This document shows positions 1 through 38,503 of a DNA stretch of 64,000 bases, one piece after another. A program made the position numbers and the translations under genes. The notes beneath the pieces were generated by a model. That model had not been told where the DNA came from. It ran no database searches and saw only the letters and a list, made by a program, of their open reading frames with translations. Position 1 is the first letter of the stretch, and the number at the start of each line of letters is the position of its first letter. Source of the DNA: Myxococcota bacterium (GTDB taxonomy: Bacteria > Myxococcota_A > SURF-8); the NCBI GenBank assembly GCA_965140415.1, contig OZ223209.1, positions 32,001-96,000 of the forward strand. Direction: 5' to 3'.

Positions 1-3000
1 CAGTATCCTGAAAAAATCCTGTAAGCGCGATAGAGCCATCCGTCAACTCTACAACACTGTGACCGTAATCTGCCGATTCCCCCCCGAATGTTCTGCTCCA
101 TCTATGGTCTCCGTTGGCATCAAAGACACTTACAAAAACATCACTTTCGCCGCTTGATGAATGATTTTCTGTACCTGAGCCAGGATCGAAATCGACTGTA
201 TATTGAAAATGGCCAACCACTGCTAGTCCACCATCTGAGAGTTGTGTAATACCTTTGCCATAGTCATCAGATGTACCCCCAAAAACTCGGCTCCACCTAT
301 ATTCGCCAGTATTTGAAAACACAGTAACAAATACATCACTGGATGTACCACTTGCAGTATATTCATCCTCAGCTTCGCTCGGATCAAAATCGACTGTTCT
401 CTGAAAATGTCCAGTTACAGCAAAGCCACCATCTACCAATTGTGTGATTGCCCACCCATCATCGCCCATTGTCCCTCCGAACGTCTTGCCCCAAATATAG
501 TTCCCGCTCGAATCGAAAATGCTTAGAAACACATCTTGAGAACCGTTAGATGTGTGGTTGTCCTCTTCGTCACTAGGATCGAAGTCAACCGTATCATGGA
601 TATAACCTGCCAAGGCCATACCACCATCGGCAAGTTGGACAATCCCTCCAAGAGCTAGGTCCACACCAGTACCCCCAAACGTTACTGCCCAACCAGCATC
701 ATAGCATCCATAAATTGCATCACAGGCGTCGTGGGTTTTGGGATTATTGTCTAAGTCACAGTACAGATCATCAGGCTCGCCCGCTGTGCAGATGCCATTC
801 TGACATTCATCCAGTGTGCAATCCACCCCATCAAACTCGCAGCCTTCACCATTCTCGATGTGATTATCCAAGCACACACCCGCGCCATTGCAGGTATCCG
901 GTGCGGTGCAGGTTGTGGTTTCCGTGCTGCCGCAGGCCGTGCCTGCCGGGTCGAAGCAGGAATCGACATCCTCCTGGCAGGTGTTGCACTCGGTTTCCGG
1001 GCAGGGGTTGCCATCGTGAATGCATTCACCCGAACCGTTGCAGGTATCGTCGCCGTTGCAGAACAGGCTGTCGTCGCAGTCGTAACCGAAGCTGCGCCAG
1101 GTCCAGATGTCGGTAGCGACGCCCGTGTCGCAGTAGTGGCAGCGGTTGTCGGACTGCTCCTGGTTGTGCTGATAACAGGTCTCGTCGATCAGGCAGCGTC
1201 CCTGCTTCAAGGTGTGGTTGCATTGCCCGTTCGTCGCACAAAGATCGTCGGTGCAGGAGAGGGTGTCGTCCGTGCAGATCTCGCTTTCATGCGCGGCTAG
1301 ATTGTGCTTGCACGTGCGATCCGTATCGCAGAAGGGCTCCGAGCATTCCAAGCCATCGTCGGCCAGATCCGAACACCCCGCCGCCGTGGTGCAGTCTTTA
1401 CAATACCCACTGCCATCGCACTGGTCCGAATCGTCTCCCGTGCCGCCAACCTGACAGGCAGTGTTGGCCGCATAGTTATTGAACGAGCAGACGCCGTTCT
1501 GACACTGCATTTCCGTGCATTCGCCATCGCGGCCATTCCAGGACATGTCGCCGCAGCCATTGACGTTCACACAGTCTTTGCAATATCCGCTGCCGTCGCA
1601 TTGATCGGAATCGTCGCCGCTGCCGTCCGATTGACACAGGGTGTTCGCGGCATCGTTACTGAACGAGCAGGTGTTGTTCTGGCATTGCATCTGCGCGCAT
1701 TCATCATCGCGTTCGCCCCAGTCCAGATCCGAACAGCCACCCACATCGTAGCAATCCTCGCAGGTGCCGGAAACGCACTGGTCATCCGTGCCACAGGCCG
1801 TGCCGTCGGTCATGGGCGTCCAGGAGGTGTCGTTGTAGAAAAGATCGCATTTCTGACAGGAGTTAGTCGGATCGGTATGCAGATTCTGATAGCACTCTCC
1901 TCCGATGTAACACCAACCGCCAGCGGTGTCCGCGCTCCATTCGTCGTCCGCACCCGAACCGTAGGGATTGCAGACCAGGCAGTCTTTCGGTCCCCGCGCC
2001 CCGGTGGCGTAGCAGGTACCGTCGATGTAGCAGTCGCAGATTTCCGGGTCGGCATCGCCGTCGGGTATGTCCACATCGCCATCGGGATTTTCGAGATAGG
2101 CGGCATCCCATTGCAGCGGATCGTTGATGATGCCACAGTCGATCACCTGAGCGCCAGCCGGGTTTCTAAGTGGCGACCAGCAATATTCCTGAAGAAGGGC
2201 CAGGTCTTCGTAACGGAATGCGGAGTCGCTGTCGTCCGGTCGGTAGTCGTATTGCCCATCGGGCACGGACTCGTCCCACAAATCGTAGTAGGGCCAGTCT
2301 TTGAACTGCTGGACCGCTGCCAGATAATACTGGTAAATGAGAGCGGCTTCGCTCGATTTGAGCGGCAGTCCCTCCGAGGCCGCCTGCAAAATGTAGTGAG
2401 CCAGATCGCGGTCCCATTTGTCGCCATAGGCCAGTCGTTCATCGTCGTCCGCCATGTAACGGTCGATGCGCATCCCCAGCCCTTCAAGCAATGTTTCCGC
2501 CGTGCTGTCACGATGGCGAAGCAGGGAGCCGCCCAGGGCAGCCGTATGCCAGTTGCGAACGATTGCATAATTGTAATAATGAACAGCGGTGGCCGTGGTT
2601 TCGTAACTGTTGTTGTCGTATAAACCACAGTTGTTGCTCAGAGGCGCAGCATAGCCGATCAGGGCGGCTGAAAGCTTGGCCCCGCACTCGGCATTGGGAA
2701 AAAGGTCTTCCCAGTCGACAAAGCTGGCGATATCGCCCACAGACTGATCCGCCTCGGTATCACCCGTGTGACCGGGAATGAAGGGATTGCCGTTTTCGTC
2801 TTTACTGCGGATGTAGTAGCCACTGTCCACGATATCGCGGGTGAAGCCCTGTAGATATTGCCAGGCTTCGGCGGCGGCGGCTTTGACGTCTGCGTCGGGT
2901 GCGTATTCGGCGGCGTAACGGATGAACGGAGCGGCGCGGAAGATATGGGCAGCATTATCCTTGGACTGCATATTGGTTACCCATACCGATCCCCAACTCG

Positions 3001-5296
3001 GGTTATTCGCATAATTGAAACGGCTCGCATTCCATAGTGAGGATGAGTAGTACCAGGCGCTGAAGTCCACGGCTTTATTCCGGCCATCAACCGTGAAGGA
3101 ATGGTTCTCACCCACAATATTGCGCGCCATTAAATAGTCCTGCTGGTCGTACTCGTCATACATCATGCCCAGCATGGCCGCGGTGATTCCCTTGCAGTAC
3201 TGTTTCACAATCTCACCGGCATCGCTGTCGCCTGTCGAAAGGTAGGCACCGATAGCCTGAGACAGCACTTTCGATGTTCTAATGAAGATGTTGTGACCGC
3301 CACCCGTGCCGTCGTTGTGCTTGAATGTGACTGTGTCCCCCGATTTGATGGCTTCCACGTCGCTCCACCAGACCATCCAGTCCCGCTTGCCCGTGGAGGC
3401 GTCGTTGCCGTGGCTCGTGCGGCGGACATGTTGCCAGTAATCGATTTTCTGCCAGAGTCCCGTAATGCTGCGGCTCAGGTGTTCGATTTGCTCCTCCGAA
3501 AGAGGCGTCCCCTCATCCTCGCGTGTAAATTCAAAAGGCAGGGCCTCCGGTAGATCCTCTGACATTTCGAATTCAAAATCGCCATCAGGCATATCCACAT
3601 CGCCATCGGTAACCACGCAGGGAAGCGAGTTGAAATCGAATGCGCCGTTACTGCGAGTGACTTGCCAAGTCAATAGATCGCCTTCCTCGTCCATCTCGTC
3701 CTGAAGCAGGCAGGTCGAGCCTTGCCTGTCATCGGTTTTGGAAAGCAGAACATTCACCAGAGTATTGCTCTGATTCAAGCAGACGCCCTGGGTTATCTCT
3801 TGCGCGCAATCTTCATCGAAGCGGGCGGTAAGCGTGTAGGTGCCGTCGCAGGGATCGATGTGGCTAATGCGTTCCCGCAGGCCGTTTGCGGCGCTGTCCG
3901 TGTTTTCAAGAACGAAGGCCGAACCGCAGCTTGAGAATATACATTCGTGAGACGCATTCATGCTTTGATCGTCGCAGAGCGTGCCATTGGGAACTTGCCA
4001 GCCGAGTTGCACGTTCATCTCGCCTTCGCCGGTAAAGGTCATTTCGATGTCGATTTGGTCCTCATTGCCGTAGTTCACAAGCACCCGTTTCGAAAAGGAA
4101 CTCAAGCCGCGGCTGTCGGTGACGACCAGTTCCACAACGTATTGACCCACAATATCCACTTCAAATGTCACGATTCCACTTTGCTCGTTTGGAGACAGAG
4201 TTGCGTTGGATAACGCTGGCTTCGTGAGACTCCATTGATATTCCAGGGGGTAATCGCCATCAGGGTCGTAGCTGATCGTTCCATACAGCGTAAGGCGCTT
4301 CTGGGCGCTTGTTGCGGTGGAAGGAATTGTAATGGGAGCGGTAATGTCCGCACCATTGTCGGAGAGCGCGACCAAGGCGACGGGGAGCATGTTTTCACTG
4401 TCGCCGTCGATGTCACCATCGGAGGTATCCTGATCGGTGTCCGTCTGTTCCTGATCCGTATCCGTCTGTTCCACATCTCCGTCCGACTGTTCTTCGTCAC
4501 CATCGGGAAACACGCACTCGCCCTTGTTGAAGGTGAAGGTCGCTTCGAGCGTGCCGGTAGACTGAAGCACAAGATCGTAGCCGTTCTGATTCGTCGTTAA
4601 ATACAGATCCCAAAGCGCGTCATCCAAGATTTGGGTGCTGTCATGTACACAGCCTGAGATCTCGCCGCTGGTGGTCGCAACAAGCGGTAATCCGCTGATC
4701 GAGTAGTTGTACTTGCAGTCATTGGGCGTGCCGTCCTCGATCTGGATTACGATTCCGTAGAAAGAATTCTGTTCGGTCGGGTCCATGCAGTAGGTACCGA
4801 CGAAATCCGGGCAGTCGCAGGGATCGATTTCATGATCCGTTTCGATTTCGTCCGTATCGCCATCCGGAAGGTCAGAGTCGTGATCACCATCCGGTGTGTC
4901 GCCGTCAGACGTATCACCATCAGGTGTATCGCCATCAGGTGTATCGCCGTCGGGAGAATCGGAGTCACGGTCACCATCGGGAGTATCACCATCGAACGTG
5001 TCTCCGTCTGGAGTATCGCCATCGGCAAAATCAAGATCGAAATCGAGGTCGAAATCGCCATCGGGAGTGTCGCCGTCTGGTGTATCTCCATCCGGATTTT
5101 CGGAGTCTGCAAGATCCGAATCACTCGGATTGCTAACGCAAAGTCCCTCCACGCAGTGCAGGCCGTCGTCACAACTCAGATCGGCATAGCACTTTTCGCC
5201 CGCGCCGCCGTAGTTTTCATAACCACTACACGCGCAGAGCAGGCAAACCAGCCCGAGTAATCCCGCTATTCCGAAACGTCGCCAATATGATTTCAT
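1..5296 (-). CDS. Giant modular lipoprotein (>1765 aa, runs off the left edge): DGD linkers, PKD/Ig-like domain, unknown central domain, Cys-rich repeats, SBBP-like beta-propeller blades
   Basis: Absent from the ORF track, consistent with no stop inside the window. Manual translation from ATG 5296 (GGAG upstream) gives MKSYWRRFGIAGLLGLVCLLCAC, then (TPDGD)n, then LTLYGTISYDPDGDYPLEYQW...GQYVVELVVTDSRG. The same frame at 1-700 gives repeats of the form W(G/S)xxFGGxxxDxGxxIxQLxDGGxAVxGHFQxTVDFDP. Confidence 0.85.
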   Translation of the reverse strand, partial: MKSYWRRFGIAGLLGLVCLLCACSGYENYGGAGEKCYADLSCDDGLHCVEGLCVSNPSDSDLADSENPDGDTPDGDTPDGDFDLDFDLDFADGDTPDGDTFDGDTPDGDRDSDSPDGDTPDGDTPDGDTSDGDTPDGDHDSDLPDGDTDEIETDHEIDPCDCPDFVGTYCMDPTEQNSFYGIVIQIEDGTPNDCKYNYSISGLPLVATTSGEISGCVHDSTQILDDALWDLYLTTNQNGYDLVLQSTGTLEATFTFNKGECVFPDGDEEQSDGDVEQTDTDQEQTDTDQDTSDGDIDGDSENMLPVALVALSDNGADITAPITIPSTATSAQKRLTLYGTISYDPDGDYPLEYQWSLTKPALSNATLSPNEQSGIVTFEVDIVGQYVVELVVTDSRGLSSFSKRVLVNYGNEDQIDIEMTFTGEGEMNVQLGWQVPNGTLCDDQSMNASHECIFSSCGSAFVLENTDSAANGLRERISHIDPCDGTYTLTARFDEDCAQEITQGVCLNQSNTLVNVLLSKTDDRQGSTCLLQDEMDEEGDLLTWQVTRSNGAFDFNSLPCVVTDGDVDMPDGDFEFEMSEDLPEALPFEFTREDEGTPLSEEQIEHLSRSITGLWQKIDYWQHVRRTSHGNDASTGKRDWMVWWSDVEAIKSGDTVTFKHNDGTGGGHNIFIRTSKVLSQAIGAYLSTGDSDAGEIVKQYCKGITAAMLGMMYDEYDQQDYLMARNIVGENHSFTVDGRNKAVDFSAWYYSSSLWNASRFNYANNPSWGSVWVTNMQSKDNAAHIFRAAPFIRYAAEYAPDADVKAAAAEAWQYLQGFTRDIVDSGYYIRSKDENGNPFIPGHTGDTEADQSVGDIASFVDWEDLFPNAECGAKLSAALIGYAAPLSNNCGLYDNNSYETTATAVHYYNYAIVRNWHTAALGGSLLRHRDSTAETLLEGLGMRIDRYMADDDERLAYGDKWDRDLAHYILQAASEGLPLKSSEAALIYQYYLAAVQQFKDWPYYDLWDESVPDGQYDYRPDDSDSAFRYEDLALLQEYCWSPLRNPAGAQVIDCGIINDPLQWDAAYLENPDGDVDIPDGDADPEICDCYIDGTCYATGARGPKDCLVCNPYGSGADDEWSADTAGGWCYIGGECYQNLHTDPTNSCQKCDLFYNDTSWTPMTDGTACGTDDQCVSGTCEDCYDVGGCSDLDWGERDDECAQMQCQNNTCSFSNDAANTLCQSDGSGDDSDQCDGSGYCKDCVNVNGCGDMSWNGRDGECTEMQCQNGVCSFNNYAANTACQVGGTGDDSDQCDGSGYCKDCTTAAGCSDLADDGLECSEPFCDTDRTCKHNLAAHESEICTDDTLSCTDDLCATNGQCNHTLKQGRCLIDETCYQHNQEQSDNRCHYCDTGVATDIWTWRSFGYDCDDSLFCNGDDTCNGSGECIHDGNPCPETECNTCQEDVDSCFDPAGTACGSTETTTCTAPDTCNGAGVCLDNHIENGEGCEFDGVDCTLDECQNGICTAGEPDDLYCDLDNNPKTHDACDAIYGCYDAGWAVTFGGTGVDLALGGIVQLADGGMALAGYIHDTVDFDPSDEEDNHTSNGSQDVFLSIFDSSGNYIWGKTFGGTMGDDGWAITQLVDGGFAVTGHFQRTVDFDPSEAEDEYTASGTSSDVFVTVFSNTGEYRWSRVFGGTSDDYGKGITQLSDGGLAVVGHFQYTVDFDPGSGTENHSSSGESDVFVSVFDANGDHRWSRTFGGESADYGHSVVELTDGSIALTGFFQDT

Positions 5297-6457: not shown

Positions 6458-6952
6458 TCAGCAGTCCGGGTCGATACCTGCCGGGCAGGAATCGTCGCAG
6501 TAACCGTCATCCACACAGGAATCGAATTCACAGGCGTAAATGTCATCCATCATCGGCGTGTCGCTCGCGCAGCAGCAGTCGGGATCGTCCACGCAGGGAT
6601 AATATTCGTCCGTACCGACGGTAACGGCGTTTTCACAAACGCCGACCTTGGTGTCACAATCCGCTTTCATTTTGCCACCGAAACCGGTGCTGCCGTCGAA
6701 ATTAGGATCGCAGGTGACCGCGTCACCTTCGTCGCCATCTGTCGTCATGTCACCATCGGTGGTCGTATCGCCATCGGTCGTCATATCGCCATCTGCGGTA
6801 TCGCCGTCGGTGGTCATGTCGCCATCTGCCGTGTCGCCGTCAGCGGTGTCGCCGTCGGTGGTCGTGTCGTCATCATCGTCGCCACAACCAAGCAGCAGAA
6901 ATGCGTTCAACGCAAACAACACGCAAATCAGTAAAAACAAGGACTTTTTCAT
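6458..6952 (-). CDS. Small DGD-repeat, Cys-rich lipoprotein
   Basis: ATG 6952 with GGAGG upstream; lipobox LLLGC-GDDDD; about 8 DGD units, then a Cys-rich tail ending CPAGIDPDC. Confidence 0.8.
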   Translation of the reverse strand: MKKSLFLLICVLFALNAFLLLGCGDDDDDTTTDGDTADGDTADGDMTTDGDTADGDMTTDGDTTTDGDMTTDGDEGDAVTCDPNFDGSTGFGGKMKADCDTKVGVCENAVTVGTDEYYPCVDDPDCCCASDTPMMDDIYACEFDSCVDDGYCDDSCPAGIDPDC

Positions 6953-13649: not shown

Positions 13650-15593
13650 TTACGGCACGGTTACATAGGCCGTGTCGTAAAGTTGATTCCAGACCATGAC
13701 GTTGATGGTATAATCGCCGCTGGGAAGATCGTAAATGCTGCTGTTGACGTCGTACAGGCAGACGCAGTCGCAGGGCGCTTGCAGCATTTCTGTTTCGGTG
13801 AGCGTGATCGTGAAGCCGTCGATAGCCATTGCCACCGCGATTTCGTCGATGCAACAGTTGTATTCGGCGTTATGATGCAACACGGCGATGTGATCCGTTT
13901 CCCAGTTCGCCGTCAACGTTTCATCGGTACTGTCACGAAATCCGGAACCAAGGCAGTCGGAGTTGTTGTGCTGCAATTCCGGTGCAGCCCCGACCGTCAA
14001 GGAAGTGCTTCCCGCCAGATTTCCATCGTTGTTGTAAAATTCCACCGTGTATAGGCCGTCGGCCAACCCGGCAACCTGGGCGCTGATATCGAAGGGACAG
14101 ACGCAGAAACAGGGATTGGGAGCGACTTCCGTTTCGTACAGTTTCAACGTATTGCCATCCTGCACCAACTCCACGCTGATTTCGTCGATGCAGCAGTTGT
14201 ACACCGCGTTATGATGAGTCGCCGTAGCCAGTCCGGTTTCGGCATCGTAACTGGCTTCAAAGCTTTCCGTGCCATACAAGCTGTCATCATCGCCGTCGAC
14301 AGTGCGTGTCGCGCCGTTCAGGCAGTCAGAATTACGTACACCGGCCAGTTGCACACCACCGACAGTCACTTGGGCCGATCCAGCCAACTGGCCACCGTCC
14401 AGGTAAAATTCCACCGTGTACACTCCGTCCGCGAGATCGTCGATTTGAGCGCTGACATCATACGGGCATACGCAGGCGCAGGGCATATCGACCTGTTCCG
14501 TTTCGTACAGTTTCAGTGTAGTGCCATCCTGCACCAGATCCACATCGATGGAGTCGATGCAGCAGTTGTACACCGCGTTGTGATGAATTGCCGTAACGGC
14601 TCCGGTAGAGGAATCGTAATTTGCCTCGAAGGTCGCGGCGGGGAACATGCCGTCTTCGTCACCATCCACCGTGGTGCGCGTGTTACCCAGACAGTCGGAA
14701 TTCTGAACGTTGCTCAGCGTGGCGCCATCACCTACCGTGACTTGAGCCGAGCCGGCCAGATCGCCACCATCCTTGTAGAATTCCACGGTGTAGCTGCCAT
14801 CTTCCAGATCCGCAATCTGCGTCTCGACATCGTAAGGGCAGATGCAGTTGCATGGCATATCGAGGATTTCCGTTTCGTAGAGTTTCAGCGTGTTGCCATC
14901 CACTACCAGATCCAGCCCGATGGACTCGATGCAGCAATTATAAATGACGTTGTGATGAATCGCCGTAACCAGACCGGTCGTCGGATTGTAGCTGGCTTCG
15001 ACACTTTCTACACCGAAAGGATCCTCGCTGTCGCCGGTGCGGGTTCCCAGGCAGCTGGAGTTGGTCGTTTCGCGCAGATTCGGACCGCTGCTGTCGCCAT
15101 CGGTGGTGTCGCCGTCGGTCATGTCGCCATCGGTCGTATCGCCATCGATGGTGTCGCCGTCGGTCATGTCGCCATCGGTCGTATCACCATCGGGCGTGTC
15201 GCCATCGGCAGTGTCGCCATCGGCAGTATCACCATCGGCAGTGTCGCCATCGGCAGTATCACCATCGGCAGTGTCGCCATCGGCAGTATCGCCATCGGCA
15301 GTGTCGCCATCGGCAGTGTCGCCATCGGCAGTGTCGCCATCGGCAGTGTCGCCATCGGTCGTGTCACCATCGGCAGTATCTCCGTCGGTTGTGTCGCCAT
15401 CGGTCGTATCGCCATCGGTTGTGTCGCCATCGGTGGTGTCGCCATCGGTTGTGTCGCCATCGGTGGTATCACCATCGGTCGTGTCGCCGTCAGCAGTATC
15501 GCCATCGACGGTGTCATCGTCGTCACCGCAACCGGCCAGCGCGACTGTCGCCAGCATCATCATTAAAAGGATGAAAATCGAAAGTTTACGCAT
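13650..15593 (-). CDS. Lipoprotein with 28 DGD pentapeptides and four tandem NCC/CxCxC domains
   Basis: Start MRKLSIF (GGGAGA upstream); lipobox LAGC-GDDDD; four copies of SxCL...HHNxxYNCCI...ETE...PCxCxCx(Y/F)D. Confidence 0.85.
   Translation of the reverse strand: MRKLSIFILLMMMLATVALAGCGDDDDTVDGDTADGDTTDGDTTDGDTTDGDTTDGDTTDGDTTDGDTTDGDTADGDTTDGDTADGDTADGDTADGDTADGDTADGDTADGDTADGDTADGDTADGDTADGDTPDGDTTDGDMTDGDTIDGDTTDGDMTDGDTTDGDSSGPNLRETTNSSCLGTRTGDSEDPFGVESVEASYNPTTGLVTAIHHNVIYNCCIESIGLDLVVDGNTLKLYETEILDMPCNCICPYDVETQIADLEDGSYTVEFYKDGGDLAGSAQVTVGDGATLSNVQNSDCLGNTRTTVDGDEDGMFPAATFEANYDSSTGAVTAIHHNAVYNCCIDSIDVDLVQDGTTLKLYETEQVDMPCACVCPYDVSAQIDDLADGVYTVEFYLDGGQLAGSAQVTVGGVQLAGVRNSDCLNGATRTVDGDDDSLYGTESFEASYDAETGLATATHHNAVYNCCIDEISVELVQDGNTLKLYETEVAPNPCFCVCPFDISAQVAGLADGLYTVEFYNNDGNLAGSTSLTVGAAPELQHNNSDCLGSGFRDSTDETLTANWETDHIAVLHHNAEYNCCIDEIAVAMAIDGFTITLTETEMLQAPCDCVCLYDVNSSIYDLPSGDYTINVMVWNQLYDTAYVTVP
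15093..15506 (-). repeat. Coding tandem repeat: 28 x 15 nt encoding DGD plus TA/TT/TP/MT/TI
   Basis: Strict 15-nt period with synonymous third-position variation. Confidence 0.9.
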
Positions 15594-15884: not shown

Positions 15885-17258
15885 ATGAATACTCACTTGT
15901 ACCCGCCCACCCGTGATCAATTGTTAATAACCTTGTTACTTCTGATGATCCTCGGGCTTGCCGTAGCCTGTCAGGGAAACTCGGATGATCCCATTGATGG
16001 GGATACCGAAGACGAGCAAACGGATTCCGATACCTTGCCCGATGGCGATATGGATCTCGATTTCGATTCGATTGATAATCAGCCTCCTGTAATCGACGGC
16101 GATGCCGACCCGGAAGTCGAAATGGAAGCCGATAGCGATTCCAATCCACCCCAACTCTTATGTCATCCCGGAGAGTGGGAATGCTACGACGATCAGTCCC
16201 TCTATCGTTGCGCCGAAGACGGACAGGGATATCTCGATTACCACTTGTGCCAACCCAATGAAATCTGTGAGGAAAACGCCTGTGTTGCGCGCTATCCCGA
16301 TGGAGATGTGGCAGATGGTGATGTCATCGATGGGGATGCAACAGATGGCGATGGTACAGATGGTGATGTCATCGATGGGGATATGACCGACGGTGATGCA
16401 ACCGATGGGGATATCATTGATGGCGACATGTCCGACGGTGATTTCGATCTGGACTATGATGAAGAAACAGGCGACCCGGATCTCGATCCGGAACCTGAAC
16501 TGGAACCCGAACCGGACCCCGAACCCGAGCCGGAACCGGAGGAGGATCTTCCTCATTCCCAATGCAACGGCTTGACCAATACCGCCTTATGGAACTGCAT
16601 CCGCAATATCGTAACCGGTCATTATTCGCTGGGCTACGACGACGCTCGCGAGAAAATGTTCGGGGATATCGATAATGTCAACGGGCGGGTACAGTGCGTC
16701 TACACTGGAGAATGGGTTTATACCTGGGACATTCCGTCTTCCGCAACCATGAATACCGAGCATAGCTGGCCGCAGAGTTACGGGGCGGGCAGCGAACCGG
16801 CGCGCAGCGATTTAAACCACTTGTTCCCCACCATCAGCGGGGCGAATTCCGCTCGCAGCAACCATCCTTTCGGGAAAGTTGTAAGTGATATCAACGACAA
16901 CTGGGTACCAAGCCTTTTAGGTGATAATGCCAACGGAGATCGCGTATTCGAGCCGCGCGACGAGCATAAAGGCGATGTGGCACGGGCCGTGTTCTACTTT
17001 GCCATTCGCTACGACGGCGGCTACAGCCAGGTGCCCTGGTACGACGAAGCGCTGCTCAAACAATGGAACCGGAACGATCCGCCTTCGGACAAGGAAAAAG
17101 CACGCAACGATTCCATCGAGCACTACCAGCATCGACGCAATCCCTTTGTCGATCGCCCTGATTTCGTGGACAAAATCAGTGATTTTACGCGCAATTACGG
17201 GCTCGTAACGCCGCCGCCACCCACATTTGAGGAGCAATATCCGCTCTTATTTCAGTAA
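15885..17258 (+). CDS. Lipoprotein with DGD/EP linker and C-terminal endonuclease I family nuclease
   Basis: Lipobox LAVAC; NTEHSWPQS, SDLNHLFP, NSARSNHPFG, FEPRDEHKGDVARAVFYFAIRY, RNPFVDRP. Confidence 0.88.
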   Translation: MNTHLYPPTRDQLLITLLLLMILGLAVACQGNSDDPIDGDTEDEQTDSDTLPDGDMDLDFDSIDNQPPVIDGDADPEVEMEADSDSNPPQLLCHPGEWECYDDQSLYRCAEDGQGYLDYHLCQPNEICEENACVARYPDGDVADGDVIDGDATDGDGTDGDVIDGDMTDGDATDGDIIDGDMSDGDFDLDYDEETGDPDLDPEPELEPEPDPEPEPEPEEDLPHSQCNGLTNTALWNCIRNIVTGHYSLGYDDAREKMFGDIDNVNGRVQCVYTGEWVYTWDIPSSATMNTEHSWPQSYGAGSEPARSDLNHLFPTISGANSARSNHPFGKVVSDINDNWVPSLLGDNANGDRVFEPRDEHKGDVARAVFYFAIRYDGGYSQVPWYDEALLKQWNRNDPPSDKEKARNDSIEHYQHRRNPFVDRPDFVDKISDFTRNYGLVTPPPPTFEEQYPLLFQ

Positions 17259-22600: not shown

Positions 22601-25600
22601 TCGGGCAATGCGGGATGAGCGCATTGTCCGGAAATGCAGTAATCACCGGTGCAGGGAGAATCGTCCGGGGTACAGGGCGTTTGATCCGGGTAGGGATCGC
22701 CGATGCAGGAACCACTCTGACAGGTTGCGTTTTGCGAGCATTCGTTGCCATCGCTGCAATCGGTGCCATCGGTCAGACCGCAACTCACGCAGACATTGCC
22801 CACTTTGCTTTCGATGGTGCAGGCGTTGCCGTCGTCGCATTCGCTGTACACGCCGGAAACGGACACGTCGTCGATCCAGACCTTGTCCGCACCGTCGGAC
22901 TGGCTTCCGTCCTTGTCGTAGGTCCATTGCAGTTCGTGCTCGCCTGCGCTCAACGGATGGGTGAACTGTTCCCAGTTGTTGGAACCGGCCCACTCGTCAA
23001 CGAGTTCACCGTCCACCAGGAACTGTAAATAATCGTAACTCGATTCCGTGTCTTCCATGTGATAGAAGGATACTTCACCATCCACGCTTAACGTAACGGT
23101 CAATGAAAGCGTTGAGACTTCGCTGTCGTCGATGTCGCCGCTGGCCGCGCTAGCCAGACCGCTGTACATCTGCGCCGTGCTCTGCTGCCAATCCGCATTG
23201 CCGCTGGTTTCCCAGCCGTCACCGGAAGGCAGGCCGCTTTCGAAACCTTCGATCAGCAGATCCGAACCGTAGTTGCACTCTCCGCCGATACAGGAACCGC
23301 TTTCGCCGCAGGCGCTGCAATCGTCGAGCGCTTCGTTCTGACAGCCGCCACTGACGTTACAGCTATCGGTGGTGCAGTCGTTGTGATCGTCGCAACTGAT
23401 GCACTGACCTTCGAAGCAACTTCCGCCCTCACCACAAGCGGTGCAGTTCGTTTCATCTTCATAGTAGCAGCCACCGTTGGGTTCGCACAGATCGACCGTA
23501 CAGGGATTGTTATCGGAGCAGGAAATCGAAGGGTAGCTACAGGCTCCGGTCTGCTCATCGCACACATTCTGCGTGCAGATGTTGTCGTCATCGCATTTCG
23601 GACTGGTGGTGCACATGCCGTCGTTGTCGCAGAATTCAAGCGTGCAGGGGTTGTCGTCGTCGCAGTCGGAATTGTTCTGGCACTCGATGCGATCCTGGGC
23701 GTTGCTCACGTACAGAGCGAAGTCCTGGTCGGTGCTGTCGCCGTTACCGGGCAGGCCGTCGGAGTTGATGTTGGCCGCAATGACTTCAACCGTAAAGCTG
23801 CTGTAACCGCCCACTGGCAGGAATACCACTTCGATGTTGTTCTTGGCATCGAAATCGCCGCCGGTAGCGCTATAGCCTTCCGAAAAGACATTACCCTTGT
23901 ACTGCGTGCCGTTATCCAGAGTAACCAAAAGGTTCAGATCGTTGTTGTAGTTATTGCCGCTGGTCGCGCCGGGCGCGTCGGTAAAGGCCAACGTAATCTT
24001 GACCGGCTGCCCACTGTCTGCGGGGCGTAGGTTCTGCATTTCGAAACTTTGGCCAGTCTGTGTAAACAGTTCGGTCTGATCCGCAACGATCCGGGGCGCG
24101 TCGGTAAAGATACCGGACATGTCGATGCCGCCCCAGCCGACCCACTTGTTCGGAATGTTCGGAATCGCACCACCGTAACCGGTGTTTCCGCCGACCAGAT
24201 CGTAAGTGTGATTGGACATGATGGCTTTGATCATCGCCGGGCTGGGTTCTACGTCGTAAGTCTGATTGTACCAGTGAGCCACCAGCGCCGCCGTTCCGGC
24301 TGCCGCCGGTGTGCTGTGACTGGTGCCGGAAGACCAGGTGTAGAGCGTCTGGCCGCTGGGCCAGTATTCATCGCAGGTACCCTGCACATCCTGATAGTTC
24401 GGATCGGAAGAGGCCACACCCTGGATATGCGTTCCAGGTGCGACGATATCCGGCTTCAGGCGGCCATCCAAACAGAAGCCGCGACTGCTGAAGTCGGCCA
24501 GATCCTTGGCGTTGTCCGCACCTGCGGAAGTCTGCCCGCAGCCGTCATCGCCGGTAGGACGCCAGTTTTCGCTCGCGCCAACGGTAATCACGTTTTTCGC
24601 GGTTCCCGGTGCGCCGATGGATTCGAAGGTTTCGCCGCTGCCCCACTGGCCGCCGTCGCCGTCGTTTCCGGCTGAGAAGAGAATCGTCATCGGTTGCAGG
24701 CCGTTGTCTGCGTTGCGGTCGCTGTCGCGTACAAGCGCATCGTATTCCTGCGCTTCCGAATCGTATTCGCCCATGTTGGACTTACCCCAGCTATTGGTGG
24801 AGATGCGCGCGCCGCCGTCATAGGAAGCGGTAACGATCTGAGTCAACGTCATGCTGCCGGTGTCCCAGCCGTCGGCGTCGAACACGCGACTGGCCGCCAA
24901 CCCGACACCCGGAGCTACGCCCAGACCGTACAGATATCCCGCCGGGTCCAGTACGCCGGAACCGCTCGGATTCGGATACGCACCGACGATGGAAAGATTC
25001 AGCGTGCCGTGGCCGTCGATGTCGTGACCGGAAGAATCGCTGGTATAGTTGTTGATGTAGACGACATGTCCCTGCAAATCGGGATGCATGCCGGTAGTCG
25101 AACCGACGTCGCAACCGCTGTCGGTGATATCGACGATGACGTTATTCAGCCCGGTTTGCAGTCCGCGCGCCTGTAGCCAGGACAGATAACCGGGATTACT
25201 GGGCTGGGTTCCGGCGGAGTTCAACTCACCGGCCATAATCATATCCTGCCGTTCGTCCATCATTTTCGGCTTGATATACGGCTCGACCCAGTAGACATCC
25301 GAGCGGGTAGTCAATAGTCCCACCGTTGCGGAATCCAGGCGGACCTTGTAAATCTTGTGATTGCGGATCGTGACGGCGGAGGCGATGAATTCAAGCGCCT
25401 TGCTTTTAATGATTTCCACCGTGTCGGCGTTACCGGGATGCTGCACGACATACACCGCAACATCCAACTCGCCCCACTGGTTGTCCAAGCGCGGATGCAG
25501 GCGGTCGGCCTGTTTCCAGTTCCGGGCGTAGTCGATGTCGTTTTTCGTATCCGCCAGCGCAGCCGCCAGATTCTTGCCGCTATCGTACACGACATAGGCA

Positions 25601-26019
25601 TTCTCCGGGATGTAATCCAACACTACCAATCCATGCTGCTGCAAACGCTTGACGAAACCGTCCGTAATCGCTCCTCGATGATGCAGCAGTCGAATACCGG
25701 CTGCGCCATCCACCTGGGAAAGCAGGTTGGTCTTGCTCTGCGTCTGTGCCGTTTCCGTTGCCCGGCGCAGATGAATCTGCTTCATCTGCGAGGCATCCCG
25801 CAACCACATTCCTTGCGTATCCTGCTCGAACAAGCGCCCCGAGGCGTCTTCGTACAGCGCGAAATTTCCGTAATCGCGCACGAATGTCGCATCGACAGGT
25901 AAGGTCTTGACAGCACTATCGGTCAATTCCGATTGAGCGGAATCGCCACAGCCTGCAAGCCAGAGCAGGGAGAGAGATACCAATAACATTAACATTTTAC
26001 TTAGCTTGGAATGCGGCAT
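19630..26019 (-). CDS. Giant S8 subtilase (KP-43-like) with Cys-rich repeats, two related beta-sandwich domains, ~26 DGD linker and MYXO-CTERM-like tail
   Basis: Catalytic motifs ITDSG, DGHGT, SGTSHSTP; FSAGNDG, TAKNVITVGA, LKPDIVAPG; many CDDxNPCTxDxC repeats; lipobox WLAGC; tail GGSGGGCQQQP-hydrophobic-RRRK. Start MPHSK at 26019 with GGAAGG upstream. Confidence 0.9.
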   Translation of the reverse strand: MPHSKLSKMLMLLVSLSLLWLAGCGDSAQSELTDSAVKTLPVDATFVRDYGNFALYEDASGRLFEQDTQGMWLRDASQMKQIHLRRATETAQTQSKTNLLSQVDGAAGIRLLHHRGAITDGFVKRLQQHGLVVLDYIPENAYVVYDSGKNLAAALADTKNDIDYARNWKQADRLHPRLDNQWGELDVAVYVVQHPGNADTVEIIKSKALEFIASAVTIRNHKIYKVRLDSATVGLLTTRSDVYWVEPYIKPKMMDERQDMIMAGELNSAGTQPSNPGYLSWLQARGLQTGLNNVIVDITDSGCDVGSTTGMHPDLQGHVVYINNYTSDSSGHDIDGHGTLNLSIVGAYPNPSGSGVLDPAGYLYGLGVAPGVGLAASRVFDADGWDTGSMTLTQIVTASYDGGARISTNSWGKSNMGEYDSEAQEYDALVRDSDRNADNGLQPMTILFSAGNDGDGGQWGSGETFESIGAPGTAKNVITVGASENWRPTGDDGCGQTSAGADNAKDLADFSSRGFCLDGRLKPDIVAPGTHIQGVASSDPNYQDVQGTCDEYWPSGQTLYTWSSGTSHSTPAAAGTAALVAHWYNQTYDVEPSPAMIKAIMSNHTYDLVGGNTGYGGAIPNIPNKWVGWGGIDMSGIFTDAPRIVADQTELFTQTGQSFEMQNLRPADSGQPVKITLAFTDAPGATSGNNYNNDLNLLVTLDNGTQYKGNVFSEGYSATGGDFDAKNNIEVVFLPVGGYSSFTVEVIAANINSDGLPGNGDSTDQDFALYVSNAQDRIECQNNSDCDDDNPCTLEFCDNDGMCTTSPKCDDDNICTQNVCDEQTGACSYPSISCSDNNPCTVDLCEPNGGCYYEDETNCTACGEGGSCFEGQCISCDDHNDCTTDSCNVSGGCQNEALDDCSACGESGSCIGGECNYGSDLLIEGFESGLPSGDGWETSGNADWQQSTAQMYSGLASAASGDIDDSEVSTLSLTVTLSVDGEVSFYHMEDTESSYDYLQFLVDGELVDEWAGSNNWEQFTHPLSAGEHELQWTYDKDGSQSDGADKVWIDDVSVSGVYSECDDGNACTIESKVGNVCVSCGLTDGTDCSDGNECSQNATCQSGSCIGDPYPDQTPCTPDDSPCTGDYCISGQCAHPALPDNSACEDDGNSCTQDYCISGSCEHPAVGNGLPCTGNGDGNECTTDSCQNGACISEALDDCSSCADGQNVCVGGYCGGQGGLLSEGFEANTLPTGWTTGGDANWLVTSAQAYAGSRSAVNGDIGDNQISWLELTVNLIEAGTVSFYHRESTESSFDYLKFLVDGQQMQQWAGTNNWSQYSRALAAGSHVLRWVYDKDVSQSSGEDSVWIDQVVVTGAGQDCDDSEACTIDGYDGSACVHCALPEGADCSDGLFCNGVESCRSSVCTAENVPVIEDDNPCTDDWCDEDTDTVMHRCDDSNSCDDGIFCNGVATCNNCACVAAEPVDCDDDNPCTDDSCDNQADACQYVNNTAACDDGLWCTVNDQCAGGECGSTPRDCEDNFTCTAGQCNEDQDQCEQLPAHDGWACYYDHAAGIVGECLNGVCALLCHSNADCDDEISCTRDVCNEQTGTCSNTPVDLACDDNNPCTDDTCDAALDCQSVANDNNACDDGLFCMTGDHCSNGVCVSQAMDCDDGFTCTVGECNEDLDQCEQLPSHDGWACYVQFNPPVLGECLNGSCIWRCNENADCDDSIGCTIDTCDSASGECVHTPDDDACDDGIDWTEDSCDPQLDCQHIEASGNCDNPIVIQVSSETHATLAQHPSHLGAYASSCGISADASGSDVIFQLDLLEGDSVDIVLAPNDFDAGLLILSECVDGATCLDAADSNADSGEERLTFVATADGPVLIVVENFGDLATPITGDFVLTVTYTPVVDGDVIDGDIVDGDLPVDGDFVDGDTPVDGDVVDGDTPVDGDVVDGDVVDGDTPVDGDVVDGDTPVDGDVVDGDVVDGDMPVDGDVVDGDTPVDGDVVDGDTPVDGDVVDGDLVDGDLVVDGDLIDGDLIVDGDTLPDGDDLPETCTPSETICDGNVVMTCNAEGDGWIWTKDCDDQVCIGGTCQDAPDGDVLPGDVDADDDQGSGGSGGGCQQQPLQAAWLWLALLLAGCLMRRRKSVIR

Positions 26020-32828: not shown

Positions 32829-33794
32829 GTGAAACACCGGATATCCTGCCTTGTCCCAGTTGCGTTTCTCTTTGTTCTGCTGGCCGGTTTGGGTGGCTGC
32901 GATAACGAGCAATGCGCCAAGCTCAACGAAAGCTGTAAAATGCTGCCTTGCTGTTCGGGACTGATTACCCACCAAAAAACTCTAACGGTTACGGATGAAT
33001 ACGGGCACACAACCACATCGTCCAGTTGCACCTGTGTCGCTGAAATACCCGACTTCACCGACGGCGATATGGATGCCGACACGTCGGATGGAATCGTTTG
33101 CGATTATGCCAACGACAGCGCAGCAACAGGAGAACCCTGGTACGACTCGGCCTCCGATCTCGTCTGGCAAAATCCGCCTGCCGATAACAAAATGAATTGG
33201 GAGTGTGCAAAGGAATACTGTGCCAATCTGAACTTGGATGGTCACGACGATTGGCGCTTACCCACGATCGGTCAACTCCGCTCCCTGATTCGGGGTTGCT
33301 CTGAAACAAAGACGGGTGGAGATTGTACGATTCAGGATAACGGCTGCCTGTCGCTGTCCTGCCAGGAGAATTGTAACGGTTGCACTGGTAGCAATGGTCC
33401 CGCCGATGGCTGTTACTGGCCGGATGAGATGGAGGGTCCATGTGGTTCGTATAAGTCATCGTCCGCTATCGAAGACAAAGAGAACCGCGCGTGGAAAGTT
33501 CTCTTCAGCTACGCTCTCGTGGACTTGAATTACACAGACAGCGACGACTATGTCCGCTGTGTGAGAGACGGTGACATTCAGACAGACGGTGATATGGAAG
33601 TCAATCCTCCCGATGGGGATGAAGAAGTTGATATTCCAACAGACGGCGATTTGGAAGTCGATACTCCGACAGACGGCGATATGGATGTAGCGAGTAGGAT
33701 GGGCAATTGTTTTGCCCATCAATCCAATCGTTTTAATGTGATGGGCATGGCAAATGCCCATCCTACTATGATATTAAAAACAGAATCGAACTGA
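32829..33794 (+). CDS. DUF1566 (Lcl-like) domain lipoprotein with DGD linkers and a REP-derived C-terminus
   Basis: GTG start with AAGGAG; lipobox LGGC; LVWQ...W..AKEYCANL.LDGHDDWRLPTIGQLRSL...YVRCVR. Confidence 0.8.
   Translation: MKHRISCLVPVAFLFVLLAGLGGCDNEQCAKLNESCKMLPCCSGLITHQKTLTVTDEYGHTTTSSSCTCVAEIPDFTDGDMDADTSDGIVCDYANDSAATGEPWYDSASDLVWQNPPADNKMNWECAKEYCANLNLDGHDDWRLPTIGQLRSLIRGCSETKTGGDCTIQDNGCLSLSCQENCNGCTGSNGPADGCYWPDEMEGPCGSYKSSSAIEDKENRAWKVLFSYALVDLNYTDSDDYVRCVRDGDIQTDGDMEVNPPDGDEEVDIPTDGDLEVDTPTDGDMDVASRMGNCFAHQSNRFNVMGMANAHPTMILKTESN
33694..33766. repeat. GTAG REP doublet inside a CDS
   Basis: GTAGGATGGGCAA...TTGCCCATC...GATGGGCA...TGCCCATCCTAC. Confidence 0.8.
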
Positions 33795-37444: not shown

Positions 37445-38503
37445 ATGCGTCGCCTGTCCCTGGTTATGATGTCGTTTGCATTGTGCGGCTTGATGCTGCT
37501 TGGTGCTACTCAATGCTCCTCCAGCAGCGAGGACGAATTCGAATGCACACTCGATGCCGACTGCGATAGCAACAACCGTTGTTTAAACGGCCAGTGCGTC
37601 TCGCTGGTCTGCATGCAGGATAACGATTGCCTTGCTACCGAAGTCTGCGAAATTCCCACCGGCGAAGTCACCGGACTGTGCAAAGCGGCAACAATTACCG
37701 ACGGCGACGACGATCAGGCGGAGGCGGCGGTTCAAAACTGCGATATCAACGACATCCGCTGTCGCGGCGACGAATTACAGACCTGCCAGAAGAAAAACGG
37801 CGTCTGGGATTTCCGCTTGAGCCAGGTTTGTGAATGCGGTTGCGAAAACGAGCGTTGCGTGGAATGTGTCGACGGCGACCCGGATTTGGAACTGGAGCCG
37901 GAACTGGAACCGGAGCCGGAACCGATCTGCCGCGCGGGAGACTATCGCTGTTATTCCAACCAGGTACAGCTCTGCTCGGACGACGGCATGGAATGGCGCG
38001 TAGACGATCCCTGCCTCAGCGGCACCTGCGTCGAACAACTTCCCGATGCCTGGTGCGGTCCGAAATTGATCTGCGATCCGGGTATGCGCCTGTGTGATCT
38101 GGAAGGCCGAAACGCCGTAGCCACCTGCAACTCCGAAGGCACCGACTGGAGCCTGATGTACTGTGCCGCCAGCCAGGAATGTGAAGACGGCATCTGTGTC
38201 GCCGGTGGTGAATGCACGGCCAACTACTATCGCTGCAACGGCAACGCCGTAGAAAAATGCGCCCAGGACGGCAGCGGCTGGGTGCCGGTGAAAAACTGCG
38301 GAAGCACGGAAGTCTGTTCCTGCGGGCAGTACGTCGGCACCAACTGCGCCATGGCCGACTGCATCGCCACGGCGGTCTGTACGCCCTGGCAGCGTCAGTG
38401 CAGCGGTAACGTGGTGCAGATGTGCTCCTTCGACGGAACGCAGTGGTCCAATATCGAAACCTGCGCCGACGAAGAAACCTGCTCCAACGGGCAGTGTATC
38501 TGA
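37445..38503 (+). CDS. Cys-rich repeat lipoprotein with DGD/EP linkers
   Basis: Signal peptide ending ATQC-SSS; repeated C...RC.GN.V..C..DG..W....C modules; TDGDDD and VDGDPDLELEPELEPEPEP. Confidence 0.75.
   Translation: MRRLSLVMMSFALCGLMLLGATQCSSSSEDEFECTLDADCDSNNRCLNGQCVSLVCMQDNDCLATEVCEIPTGEVTGLCKAATITDGDDDQAEAAVQNCDINDIRCRGDELQTCQKKNGVWDFRLSQVCECGCENERCVECVDGDPDLELEPELEPEPEPICRAGDYRCYSNQVQLCSDDGMEWRVDDPCLSGTCVEQLPDAWCGPKLICDPGMRLCDLEGRNAVATCNSEGTDWSLMYCAASQECEDGICVAGGECTANYYRCNGNAVEKCAQDGSGWVPVKNCGSTEVCSCGQYVGTNCAMADCIATAVCTPWQRQCSGNVVQMCSFDGTQWSNIETCADEETCSNGQCI

What the first reader, a model, noticed from the sequence alone, without database searches (positions are those of the whole stretch)
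1..38503. Family of DGD-linker lipoproteins carrying unrelated domains: candidate undescribed surface-display system
Seen: at least seven genes (1-5296, 6458-6952, 13650-15593, 15885-17258, 19630-26019, 32829-33794, 37445-38503) combine a lipoprotein-type signal with acidic DGD motifs, from 2 copies up to 28 in tandem. The DGD tracts follow the lipid Cys or fall at domain junctions. Attached domains are unrelated (nuclease, protease, DUF1566, NCC domains, propeller). Spacer residues differ by gene (TA/TT, TP, VV/TPV, VI/AT) while DGD is constant and its codons vary, which points to protein-level selection and independent expansion. DGD tracts are absent from the cytoplasmic proteins here. Known: the motif resembles Dx[DN]xDG calcium-binding loops, and Asp-Gly is prone to isoaspartate formation. 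Inference: a lineage-specific calcium-binding stalk, export/sorting tag or modification target.
Basis: partly seen in the sequence, partly recalled or inferred. Interest (0 to 1): 0.8.

Follow-up and report, generated by a model that had tools for sequence, protein, structure and literature searches.

The report
Acidic DGD-repeat tethers on exported proteins
An uncultured myxobacterial lineage places tandem Asp-Gly-Asp repeats between the membrane lipid anchor and the working domains of roughly 230 exported proteins, a sequence-constrained variant of the flexible tethers already known in bacterial lipoproteins.

Summary
All seven genes exist at the stated coordinates. Six have a canonical lipobox and five carry tandem DGD arrays. 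Genome-wide, 229 of 4172 crude genes carry at least three tandem DGD units. 200 of these 229 have a lipobox-like N-terminus, against 626 of 3943 other genes. Cytoplasmic-type proteins have DGD only at about background level.

Tracts sit after the lipid Cys, before MYXO-CTERM tails, or between domains. Cargo domains are diverse hydrolases and adhesin-like modules. Codons are scrambled, yet Asp is almost never replaced by Glu, so selection acts on the protein.

Orthologues keep the tract's position but not its length or spacers. Outside the family, a Glu-rich or poly-Asp linker occupies the same place. Other Myxococcota use different five-residue acidic repeats. AlphaFold2 predicts coil, and no Pfam or NCBIfam model covers the tract.

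Best reading: a lineage-specific polyanionic spacer for anchored surface or exo-proteins. It is a genome-wide habit, not a local system. Calcium binding and a sorting role remain open. Verdict: new variant of a known kind.

The parts
1..5296 (-). Large lipoprotein gene. Its C-terminus runs beyond the window start. The lipid Cys codon is at 5228-5230. It also holds Cys-rich repeats and weak SBBP-type propeller repeats.
   Evidence: Translation. Lipobox LCAC and coordinates. No Pfam family. NF047494 only below its cut-off.
4856..5092 (-). N-terminal DGD arrays of the first gene (3 + 10 units, TP spacers). Further DGD pairs lie at 4475-4504, 4400-4420, 3578-3607 and 2054-2083.
6458..6952 (-). Small lipoprotein. 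The lipid Cys is at 6884-6886, followed by DDDDD and then 8 DGD units (6731-6856) and a conserved Cys-rich C-domain.
   Evidence: Orthologues have 2-4 DGD units with the same C-domain.
13650..15593 (-). Lipoprotein. The lipid Cys is at 15528-15530. One array of 28 DGD units (15093-15506, TA/TT spacers) is followed by four copies of an unassigned domain of about 120 aa.
   Evidence: The tract is predicted coil with pLDDT about 40-46. No Pfam family covers the tract.
15885..17258 (+). Lipoprotein endonuclease I. The lipid Cys is at 15969-15971. The order is: scattered DGD, a 6-Cys module, 10 DGD units (16299-16442), PE repeats, nuclease domain.
   Evidence: Endonuclease_1 E 1.6e-31. Coordinates. 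Orthologue series.
19630..26019 (-). Subtilase lipoprotein with Cys-rich repeats. The lipid Cys is at 25948-25950. 26 DGD units (19936-20352, VV/TPV spacers) lie just before a 6-Cys module and a tail of G-rich segment, Cys, hydrophobic helix and RRRK.
   Evidence: Peptidase_S8 E 5.1e-39. Translation. Coordinates. Tract predicted coil. Relatives show the same tail layout.
32829..33794 (+). Lipoprotein with an Lcl_C (DUF1566) domain. The lipid Cys is at 32898-32900. Five irregularly spaced DGD units lie at 33567-33680, near the C-terminus.
   Evidence: Lcl_C E 1.1e-18..
37445..38503 (+). Exported protein made of 6-Cys modules. It has only two isolated DGD units (37700-37708, 37871-37879) and an atypical lipobox. 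Weak member.

Best explanation
The (x2-4 DGD)n tracts are a lineage-specific, polyanionic, unstructured spacer. The spacer holds the globular domains of exported proteins away from their membrane lipid anchor and from each other.

The anchor can be at either end. At the N-terminus it is the lipobox Cys. At the C-terminus it is the Cys of a MYXO-CTERM tail, which is predicted to be lipidated. The cargo is mostly degradative enzymes and adhesin-like modules, so the likely place of action is the cell surface or outer envelope of this uncultured Myxococcota bacterium.

The composition is Asp, Gly, beta-branched residues and Pro, with no Lys, Arg or aromatics. It should give an extended, hydrated chain that is a poor protease substrate.

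Shown: distribution, placement, diversity of cargo, protein-level constraint, and variability among orthologues.

Inferred: the spacer function, surface location, protease resistance and any cation binding.
For: Distribution:
- 229 of 4172 crude genes carry a tract. 200 of these 229 have a lipobox-like N-terminus against 626 of 3943 others (odds ratio 36.5). With the strict lipobox rule the counts are 131 of 229 against 355 of 3943.
- The 5 tract genes without a detected signal all show one further in.

Placement:
- Of 310 tracts, 172 start within 120 aa of the start, 48 end within 150 aa of the end, and 90 are internal.
- In 90 of 131 lipobox proteins the tract starts less than 60 aa after the Cys.
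- Of 44 MYXO-CTERM-like tails, 17 belong to tract proteins, and in 17 of 17 the tract lies within 200 aa of the end.
- TIGR03901 scores over its cut-off 18 times in this genome and in 0 of 14 control genomes.

Cargo:
- With tracts masked, the 229 proteins fall into 115 single-linkage clusters, 97 of them singletons.
- In a random sample of 40 of 201 eligible proteins, 18 had a Pfam family: GH9, GH15, GH31-like, GxGYxYP, peptidases C10, C11 and S8, an EEP nuclease, a PETase-like hydrolase, CBM25, FG-GAP and Lcl_C. In one of the 18, a sub-threshold Cementoin match was the only hit.

Predicted structure: both tracts folded by AlphaFold2 come out as coil, with pLDDT 40-48.

Orthologues:
- The nuclease keeps the tract position in 5 of 5 family genomes, but with about 1 to 11 units and different spacers. 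In a genome without DGD tracts a Glu-rich linker fills the same place.
- Relatives of the subtilase C-terminal domain carry 2 to 17 DGD units before the same tail, one of them alongside a run of 24 Asp.
- Orthologues of the small lipoprotein have 2-4 units against 8 here.

Other lineages: lipobox-bearing ORFs elsewhere in the phylum carry other period-5 acidic repeats (TVDGG, DTPQG, DSVAG, TEPDA, TADGG).

Housekeeping lipoproteins: 5 of 5 strict-lipobox proteins (BamD, LptE, three OmpA-domain proteins) have no DGD at all.

Published analogues, read as passages:
- Disordered N-terminal linkers are needed for outer-membrane targeting of E. coli lipoproteins, with length and disorder mattering but not sequence (10.1101/2021.01.05.425367).
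- TraA has an intrinsically disordered region next to its MYXO-CTERM (PMC11980579).
Against: - A pure 'any acidic linker' model does not explain the strictness of the motif in this genome. Tract regions hold 2829 DGD against 32 DGE, 15 EGE and 14 NGD, while synonymous sites are nearly randomised. Something selects for Asp over Glu and for Gly.
- V and I make up 31% of spacer residues, which is unusual for a disordered linker.
- The AlphaFold2 runs used single sequences, so low confidence is weak evidence for disorder.
- Signal and lipobox calls rest on my own heuristics and a crude longest-ORF gene set.
- Surface location is not shown.
Confidence: 0.58

Rival explanations
1. The tracts are calcium-binding structural repeats. 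They would be unfolded inside the cell and would stiffen or fold into a rod once Ca2+ is bound outside, in the manner of RTX or thrombospondin type-3 repeats.
For: - Asp and Gly are nearly invariant and Glu is excluded, although codons are scrambled.
- Period-4 arrays spell DxDxDG (102 of 2315 unit steps).
- The tracts occur only in exported proteins.
- Each unit carries two carboxylates.
Against: - No TSP_3, TSP3_bac, HemolysinCabind or other calcium-repeat model matches at E up to 0.01 on whole proteins or up to 10 on tracts alone.
- 96% of unit steps have period 5-7, and periods are mixed within one tract.
- AlphaFold2 gives coil.
- Orthologous positions accept poly-Asp or Glu-rich linkers.
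Confidence: 0.2
2. The acidic head after the lipid Cys, together with the DGD tract, is a sorting code. The code would send a subset of lipoproteins and MYXO-CTERM proteins to the cell surface or into vesicles, as the Bacteroidota lipoprotein export signal does.
For: - Positions +4 to +6 are Asp in about 40% of tract lipoproteins against 13-19% of other lipoproteins.
- At least 3 acidic residues lie in +2 to +7 in 56 of 131 tract lipoproteins against 67 of 355 others (odds ratio 3.2).
- Common heads are CGGDDD, CGSDDD and CGDDDD. The Bacteroides fragilis signal is given as SDDDD (PMC5080379, passages).
- Housekeeping periplasmic lipoproteins lack DGD.
Against: - 75 of 131 tract lipoproteins lack the acidic head.
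- Tracts also lie internally and at C-termini, and vary from 3 to 59 units.
- No machinery was identified, and the phylum differs.
- The housekeeping sample is only five proteins.
Confidence: 0.12
3. DGD is a recognition site for a post-translational change, such as isoaspartate formation or repair, hydroxylation or glycosylation.
For: The tripeptide is strictly kept. That Asp-Gly is prone to isoaspartate formation is established chemistry, recalled here.
Against: - One good PCMT copy is present in 7 of 10 genomes of the order, whether or not they have DGD tracts. None was found in the DGD-positive genome G008.
- No Asp/Asn hydroxylase family match was found in 10 of 10 genomes, but the control genomes were silent too, so this says little.
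- No candidate enzyme lies next to the dispersed genes.
Confidence: 0.05
4. The arrays are slippage-prone contingency repeats that vary surface proteins rapidly.
For: Unit number differs between orthologues.
Against: - Adjacent units identical in protein differ by about 2 nucleotides on average, and only 87 of 524 are identical in DNA. This suppresses slippage.
- Units are in-frame multiples of three, so they cannot switch genes off.
Confidence: 0.03

Closest known systems
Intrinsically disordered N-terminal linkers of E. coli outer-membrane lipoproteins (RcsF, Pal, NlpD; 10.1101/2021.01.05.425367, abstract and passages read)
   Same: - A segment between the lipid Cys and the globular domain.
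- Predicted unstructured.
- Length matters more than sequence.
- Variable between orthologues.
   Different: - Here it is a tandem repeat with a nearly invariant tripeptide, up to about 300 aa long and strongly acidic.
- It also occurs between domains and before C-terminal anchors.
- It is absent from BamD, LptE and OmpA-domain lipoproteins of this genome.
Bacteroidota lipoprotein export signal, K-(D/E)2 or SDDDD at +2 to +6 (PMC5080379, passages read)
   Same: - Acidic residues directly after the lipid Cys.
- Enriched on hydrolase-type lipoproteins and lacking on housekeeping periplasmic ones.
   Different: - Another phylum.
- The head is present in only 56 of 131 tract lipoproteins.
- The long DGD array has no counterpart in the Bacteroidota signal.
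- Function was not tested here.
TraA-type MYXO-CTERM surface proteins with an adjacent disordered region (PMC11980579, passages read)
   Same: A disordered stretch directly before a G-rich segment with a Cys, a transmembrane helix and an Arg-rich tail. The phylum is the same.
   Different: - The stretch here is a DGD tandem array.
- The tail of the window's subtilase did not reach TIGR03901 at E 0.1, although other tract proteins of the genome do.
Thrombospondin type-3 and RTX calcium-binding repeats
   Same: Asp- and Gly-rich short tandem repeats in extracellular proteins.
   Different: - No model match.
- Different and mixed periods.
- No predicted fold.
- A genuine TSP3-like DxDxDGxxDxCD array seen in another genome (L096) looks quite different.

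Membership tests
Disordered N-terminal lipoprotein linker | Lies directly after the lipobox Cys and before the globular domain | tested here: met
   In 90 of 131 strict lipobox proteins the tract starts less than 60 aa after the Cys.
Disordered N-terminal lipoprotein linker | No stable secondary structure | tested here: inconclusive
   AlphaFold2 single-sequence models give coil and pLDDT 40-48 over both tracts. This is a prediction only.
Disordered N-terminal lipoprotein linker | Sequence and length are free to vary between orthologues | tested here: met
   Nuclease, small lipoprotein and subtilase-tail series. Within this genome, however, DGD itself is strictly kept.
Disordered N-terminal lipoprotein linker | Needed for efficient Lol-dependent outer-membrane targeting | not testable with these tools
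   Needs genetics and fractionation.
Thrombospondin type-3 / bacterial TSP3 repeat | Match to the Pfam repeat models | tested here: not met
   No such family at E up to 0.01 for the seven proteins or up to 10 for two tracts alone.
Thrombospondin type-3 / bacterial TSP3 repeat | DxDxDG-type calcium loop spacing | tested here: not met
   Only period-4 steps fit, 102 of 2315.
RTX nonapeptide (HemolysinCabind) | GGxGxDxUx units, model match | tested here: not met
   No match. The periods are 5-6, not 9.
Pentapeptide-repeat beta-helix proteins | A(D/N)LXX units with an inward hydrophobic residue, model match, beta-helix | tested here: not met
   No Pfam pentapeptide family. Only a sub-threshold GETHR match at 19.8 bits against a cut-off of 22.4. 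No strands are predicted in the tracts.
Bacteroidota lipoprotein export signal | Two or more acidic residues at about +3 to +6 after a polar or basic residue | tested here: inconclusive
   +2 is S or G in 65%, and +4 to +6 are Asp in about 40%. At least 3 acidic residues lie in +2 to +7 in 56 of 131.
Bacteroidota lipoprotein export signal | Sufficient to bring a periplasmic lipoprotein to the surface | not testable with these tools
   Needs reporter fusions.
MYXO-CTERM sorting tail (TIGR03901) | Model match over the cut-off | tested here: inconclusive
   There are 18 matches over the cut-off in the genome and none in 14 control genomes. At least 5 of them lie in tract ORFs listed. The window's subtilase tail did not match at E 0.1, although it shows the three-part layout.
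MYXO-CTERM sorting tail (TIGR03901) | Cognate CPBP-family myxosortase in the genome | tested here: inconclusive
   Three PF02517 genes are present. The family also hits 11 of 14 control genomes, so this is not specific.

The most novel reading that the evidence does not exclude
In this family, the acidic head plus the DGD array form a proteome-wide display code. The code would mark which lipid-anchored proteins, N- or C-terminally anchored, are taken to the cell surface. The array itself would be a calcium-switchable stalk whose Asp-Gly-Asp geometry is what selection preserves. If so, about 5% of the genes share a built-in surface-display module that differs from any described sorting signal.
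Probability: 0.2. Interest if true: 0.7.

Novelty: new variant of a known kind. Interest (0 to 1): 0.45.

Why it matters
Disordered tethers on lipoproteins are known, but their sequence is thought to be unimportant. Here one tripeptide is kept in about 2800 copies across roughly 230 genes while synonymous sites drift, and Glu hardly ever replaces Asp. This is a natural experiment on what a tether needs beyond length and disorder.

The tract also labels the likely surface and exo-enzyme set of an uncultured predator-like Myxococcota lineage. It links N-terminal lipoproteins and MYXO-CTERM proteins through one shared design. It offers simple peptides and reporter fusions for testing cation binding and surface sorting in a phylum where lipoprotein surface export is poorly understood.

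Tried and rejected
- A scan of the species-wide genome collection for the tract as a DNA pattern was not run. Distribution outside the phylum therefore rests on protein searches only.
- Earlier findings were not open.
- Paper searches:
  - One search was badly framed and gave only unrelated lipoprotein papers.
  - 'DGD repeat(s)/motifs/tandem' found 7 papers, and the 5 listed were unrelated.
  - Four tract strings found 0 papers.
  - Myxococcota + lipoproteins + acidic + tandem repeats found 0 papers.
  - No supplements were read.
- The protein atlas gave only scores of 0.77 with unnamed clusters, which is no lead.
- Sequencing runs: 3 holders from one study, contigs only, and no RNA holder listed. 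Laid contigs break inside the 28-unit tract (15133-15329), and joints there come from other tract loci. Nothing could be said on unit-number polymorphism or expression.
- Asp/Asn hydroxylase family: no match in 10 genomes, but the controls were silent, so this is uninformative. PCMT does not track the tract.
- The phylum-wide protein search with a tract query scored at most 9 candidates per genome and picks up any acidic pentapeptide repeat. Its 52 of 401 is therefore not a count of DGD genomes.
- Halophily as the cause of acidity is rejected. Cytoplasmic-type proteins are not acid-shifted (D 5.8, E 7.3, K 5.1, R 6.7%).
- A first regular expression for the 6-Cys module was too strict and was replaced by an iterated profile.
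- No complex prediction was attempted, because no binding claim is made.
Full report
**What is in the window.**
- Six begin with a signal sequence ending in a canonical lipobox, with the Cys at residue 23-29. The seventh (37445-38503) has an atypical ATQC.
- Tandem DGD arrays are plain in five genes: 28 units in 13650-15593, 26 in 19630-26019, 10 in 15885-17258, 8 in 6458-6952, and 3 + 10 in 1-5296, with DGD pairs at later junctions.
- 32829-33794 has five irregularly spaced units near its C-terminus. 37445-38503 has two isolated copies and is a weak member.
- The first gene continues beyond the window.
- Pfam assigns Endonuclease_1, Peptidase_S8 with Dicty_CTDC repeats, and Lcl_C (DUF1566) to three of them, and nothing above threshold to the other four. 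NCBIfam gives nothing above its cut-offs.

**Scale and chance.** The window lies in a single-contig genome of 5.98 Mb.
- A six-frame scan finds 236 open frames with at least three DGD spaced by 1-4 residues, 2706 copies in all.
- I built a crude gene set by taking the longest ORFs first: 4172 genes covering 90% of the genome. In it, 229 genes carry such a tract.
- DGD occurs 4370 times against 623 expected from composition.
- A four-unit DNA pattern hits the genome 805 times and its reversed control 0 times.

**Which proteins carry the tract.**
- By a strict lipobox rule, 131 of the 229 tract genes are lipoproteins, 93 have another hydrophobic N-terminus and 5 have none. For the other 3943 genes the counts are 355, 1153 and 2435.
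- The 5 exceptions all show a lipobox or signal further in, so their starts were miscalled.
- With a relaxed rule, 200 of 229 tract genes against 626 of 3943 others are lipobox-like (odds ratio 36.5).
- DGD density per 1000 aa is 0.35, 2.7 and 8.4 in the no-signal, hydrophobic N-terminus and lipobox classes.
- 266 of 486 strict lipoproteins have at least one DGD within 100 aa of the Cys.
- These classes rest on my own heuristics, not on a trained predictor.

**Anatomy of the tracts.**
- Unit periods are 5 (1204 steps), 6 (806), 7 (202) and 4 (102).
- Spacer residues are V 21%, T 21%, P 14.5%, I 10%, A 7% and S 6.5%, with almost no K, R, aromatic residues or Cys.
- There are 310 tracts, with a median of 6 units and a maximum of 59.
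- 172 tracts start within 120 aa of the N-terminus, 48 end within 150 aa of the C-terminus and 90 are internal.
- A pattern for a G-rich segment, Cys, hydrophobic helix and Arg-rich end finds 44 tails. 17 of them belong to tract proteins, and in all 17 the tract lies within 200 aa of the end.
- The MYXO-CTERM model TIGR03901 scores over its cut-off 18 times in this genome and in none of 14 control genomes. At least 5 of those places lie in tract ORFs listed.
- So the tract sits next to a lipid anchor at either end of the protein, or between domains. In the nuclease it lies between a 6-Cys module and the Pfam domain.

**Cargo.**
- After masking tracts and signals, the 229 proteins fall into 115 single-linkage clusters, with 97 singletons and one large cluster of 86.
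- I drew a random sample of 40 from the 201 tract proteins that are at most 1200 aa long and lie outside the window. 18 had a Pfam family at E up to 1e-5, and in one of these a sub-threshold Cementoin match was the only hit.
- The families include GH9, GH15, a melibiase/GH31-like domain, GxGYxYP, peptidases C10, C11 and S8, an EEP nuclease, a PETase-like hydrolase, CBM25/26, FG-GAP, Ig-like domains and Lcl_C. 22 of the 40 had none.
- Housekeeping periplasmic lipoproteins differ. BamD, LptE and three OmpA-domain lipoproteins with a strict lipobox have no DGD at all, and none of the 10 ORFs under these family matches has a tandem tract. The sample is small.

**Selection.**
- All 16 codon combinations for DGD are used.
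- Of 524 adjacent units identical in amino acids, only 87 are identical in DNA, with 1.96 differences on average.
- Adjacent DGD cores are identical in DNA in 16.6% of cases, against 9.8% expected from codon frequencies.
- Yet in tract regions DGD occurs 2829 times, against DGE 32, EGE 15 and NGD 14.
- Third codon positions drift between T and C but hardly ever to A or G, which would give Glu.

**Relatives.**
- The closest named record for the window's PepA is a Myxococcota MAG at 61% identity. The next is at 42%.
- The DNA pattern is found in 8 of 41 genomes including this one. All 5 other genomes of the family have it (415, 129, 82, 14 and 4 hits). One of 4 other genomes of the order has it (23 hits). 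Among 31 further genomes of the phylum there is a single hit.
- Orthologues of the nuclease in the 5 family genomes keep the order lipobox, linker, 6-Cys module, tract, nuclease. The tract ranges from about 1 to 11 units and uses other spacers (PDGDD, ETDGD, xDGDE).
- In a genome of the order without DGD tracts, the same position holds a Glu-rich linker.
- Relatives of the subtilase's last domain all end in domain, acidic tract, G-rich Cys, helix and Arg-rich tail. They carry 2 to 17 DGD units, one with a run of 24 Asp and one with mixed EGD and DGD.
- Three orthologues of the small lipoprotein have 2-4 units against 8 here, with a conserved Cys-rich domain.

**Elsewhere.**
- Elsewhere in the phylum, ORFs with lipobox-like N-termini carry other period-5 acidic repeats: TVDGG, DTPQG, DSVAG, TEPDA and TADGG. 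These were seen in 5 of the 14 loci inspected. Three further loci were wrong frames.
- Against 1.84 billion representative proteins, the 158-aa tract finds 1640 at E up to 1e-3, 260 at up to 1e-10 and 25 at up to 1e-30.
- Of the best 150, 42 have tandem DGD, 16 of them from this genome. The other 108 carry other pentapeptide repeats.
- The DGD form is thus rare and centred on this lineage, while the habit of acidic pentapeptide repeats is wider.

**Structure and families.**
- No Pfam model covers the tracts even at E up to 10. The only matches were a sub-threshold GETHR and a meaningless DUF1450.
- AlphaFold2 on single sequences gives coil with pLDDT about 40-48 for both the TxDGD and the VVDGD/TPVDGD tracts, while the flanking domains show strands. 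This is weak but consistent evidence for disorder.

**Interpretation.**
- The best-supported reading is a lineage-specific polyanionic spacer that holds globular domains away from a lipid anchor and from each other on exported, probably surface-located, enzymes and adhesin-like proteins.
- It matches the published role of disordered N-terminal linkers in E. coli lipoprotein targeting (10.1101/2021.01.05.425367, passages). It also matches the disordered region next to the MYXO-CTERM of TraA (PMC11980579, passages).
- It is a genome-wide trait rather than a locus. The mean is 1.5 tract genes per 38.5 kb against 5 here, which puts the window in the top 3.6% of windows. There are 35 adjacent pairs against 12.6 expected.
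- What this reading leaves unexplained is the strict Asp-Gly-Asp. That keeps a calcium-binding stalk, a sorting code or a modification site alive as rivals.
- The acidic head after the Cys is enriched but not universal. Asp is about 40% at +4 to +6, and 56 of 131 tract lipoproteins against 67 of 355 others have at least 3 acidic residues in +2 to +7. It recalls the SDDDD export signal of Bacteroides (PMC5080379, passages).
- The two obvious modifier families gave no support.

**Novelty.**
- Searches of the held literature for the motif found nothing relevant. Subscription papers and supplements were not seen.
- I rate this a new variant of a known kind. It is an ordinary function, a tether, in an unusual, sequence-constrained and very abundant form.

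Noticed in passing
window 13380-13560, and about 51395-51541: A dispersed repeat of about 150-160 nt in intergenic DNA. It has 83 blastn copies in the genome at 93-97% identity and very high contig depth in public runs. There is no Rfam match. It could be a MITE or an unknown structured element.
   Followed up: partly
window 16191-16313 (nuclease), 19795-19911 (subtilase C-terminus), 37445-38503 (several copies): A 6-Cys module of about 44 aa (CxPxxxxCxGxxxxxCNxxGSGYxxPxxCGxxQYCxxGxC). An iterated profile finds 100 copies in 42 proteins of the genome, 21 of them with DGD tracts. The window proteins that carry it gave no Pfam or NCBIfam match covering the module, and 37445-38503, which is built of it, gave no family at all.
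   Followed up: partly
window 13650-15090: Four tandem copies of a domain of about 120 aa with a conserved HHNxxYNCCI and CxCxCPYD pattern. Only sub-threshold Pfam matches were found (DUF3244, DUF4926).
   Followed up: no
window 8518-9645 and 53889-63213: Radical SAM genes. There is a radical SAM/SPASM gene beside two unassigned 194-aa ORFs (7188-8483). There is also a cluster with a B12-binding radical SAM, two further radical SAM genes (one with a SPASM domain), an ATP-grasp ligase, an amidohydrolase, a TPR protein, an RraA-like protein and an S41 peptidase. This could be a peptide-modification cluster.
   Followed up: no
window 39299-40501, 47371-48549, 48750-49952: Three IS4-type DDE transposase ORFs (DUF4372 + DDE_Tnp_1). 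Two of them have the same 400-aa length.
   Followed up: no
window 16455-16560 and about 37880-37930: Pro-Glu dipeptide runs (EPEPEL type) directly follow DGD units in the nuclease and in the 37445-38503 gene. This is a second linker flavour in the same proteins.
   Followed up: no
window 33680-33794: The Lcl_C lipoprotein ends about 38 aa after its last DGD unit without a recognisable anchor tail. It may be truncated or simply unanchored at that end.
   Followed up: no
L100, L104, L105, L107, L098 (other Myxococcota genomes): Lipobox-bearing ORFs with long arrays of other five-residue acidic repeats (DTPQG, TVDGG, DSVAG, TEPDA, TADGG). Each lineage seems to have its own flavour.
   Followed up: partly
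L096 (genome G355): A lipoprotein with a genuine thrombospondin type-3-like array (DxDxDGxxDxCD with Cys). It is useful as a contrast to the DGD tracts.
   Followed up: no
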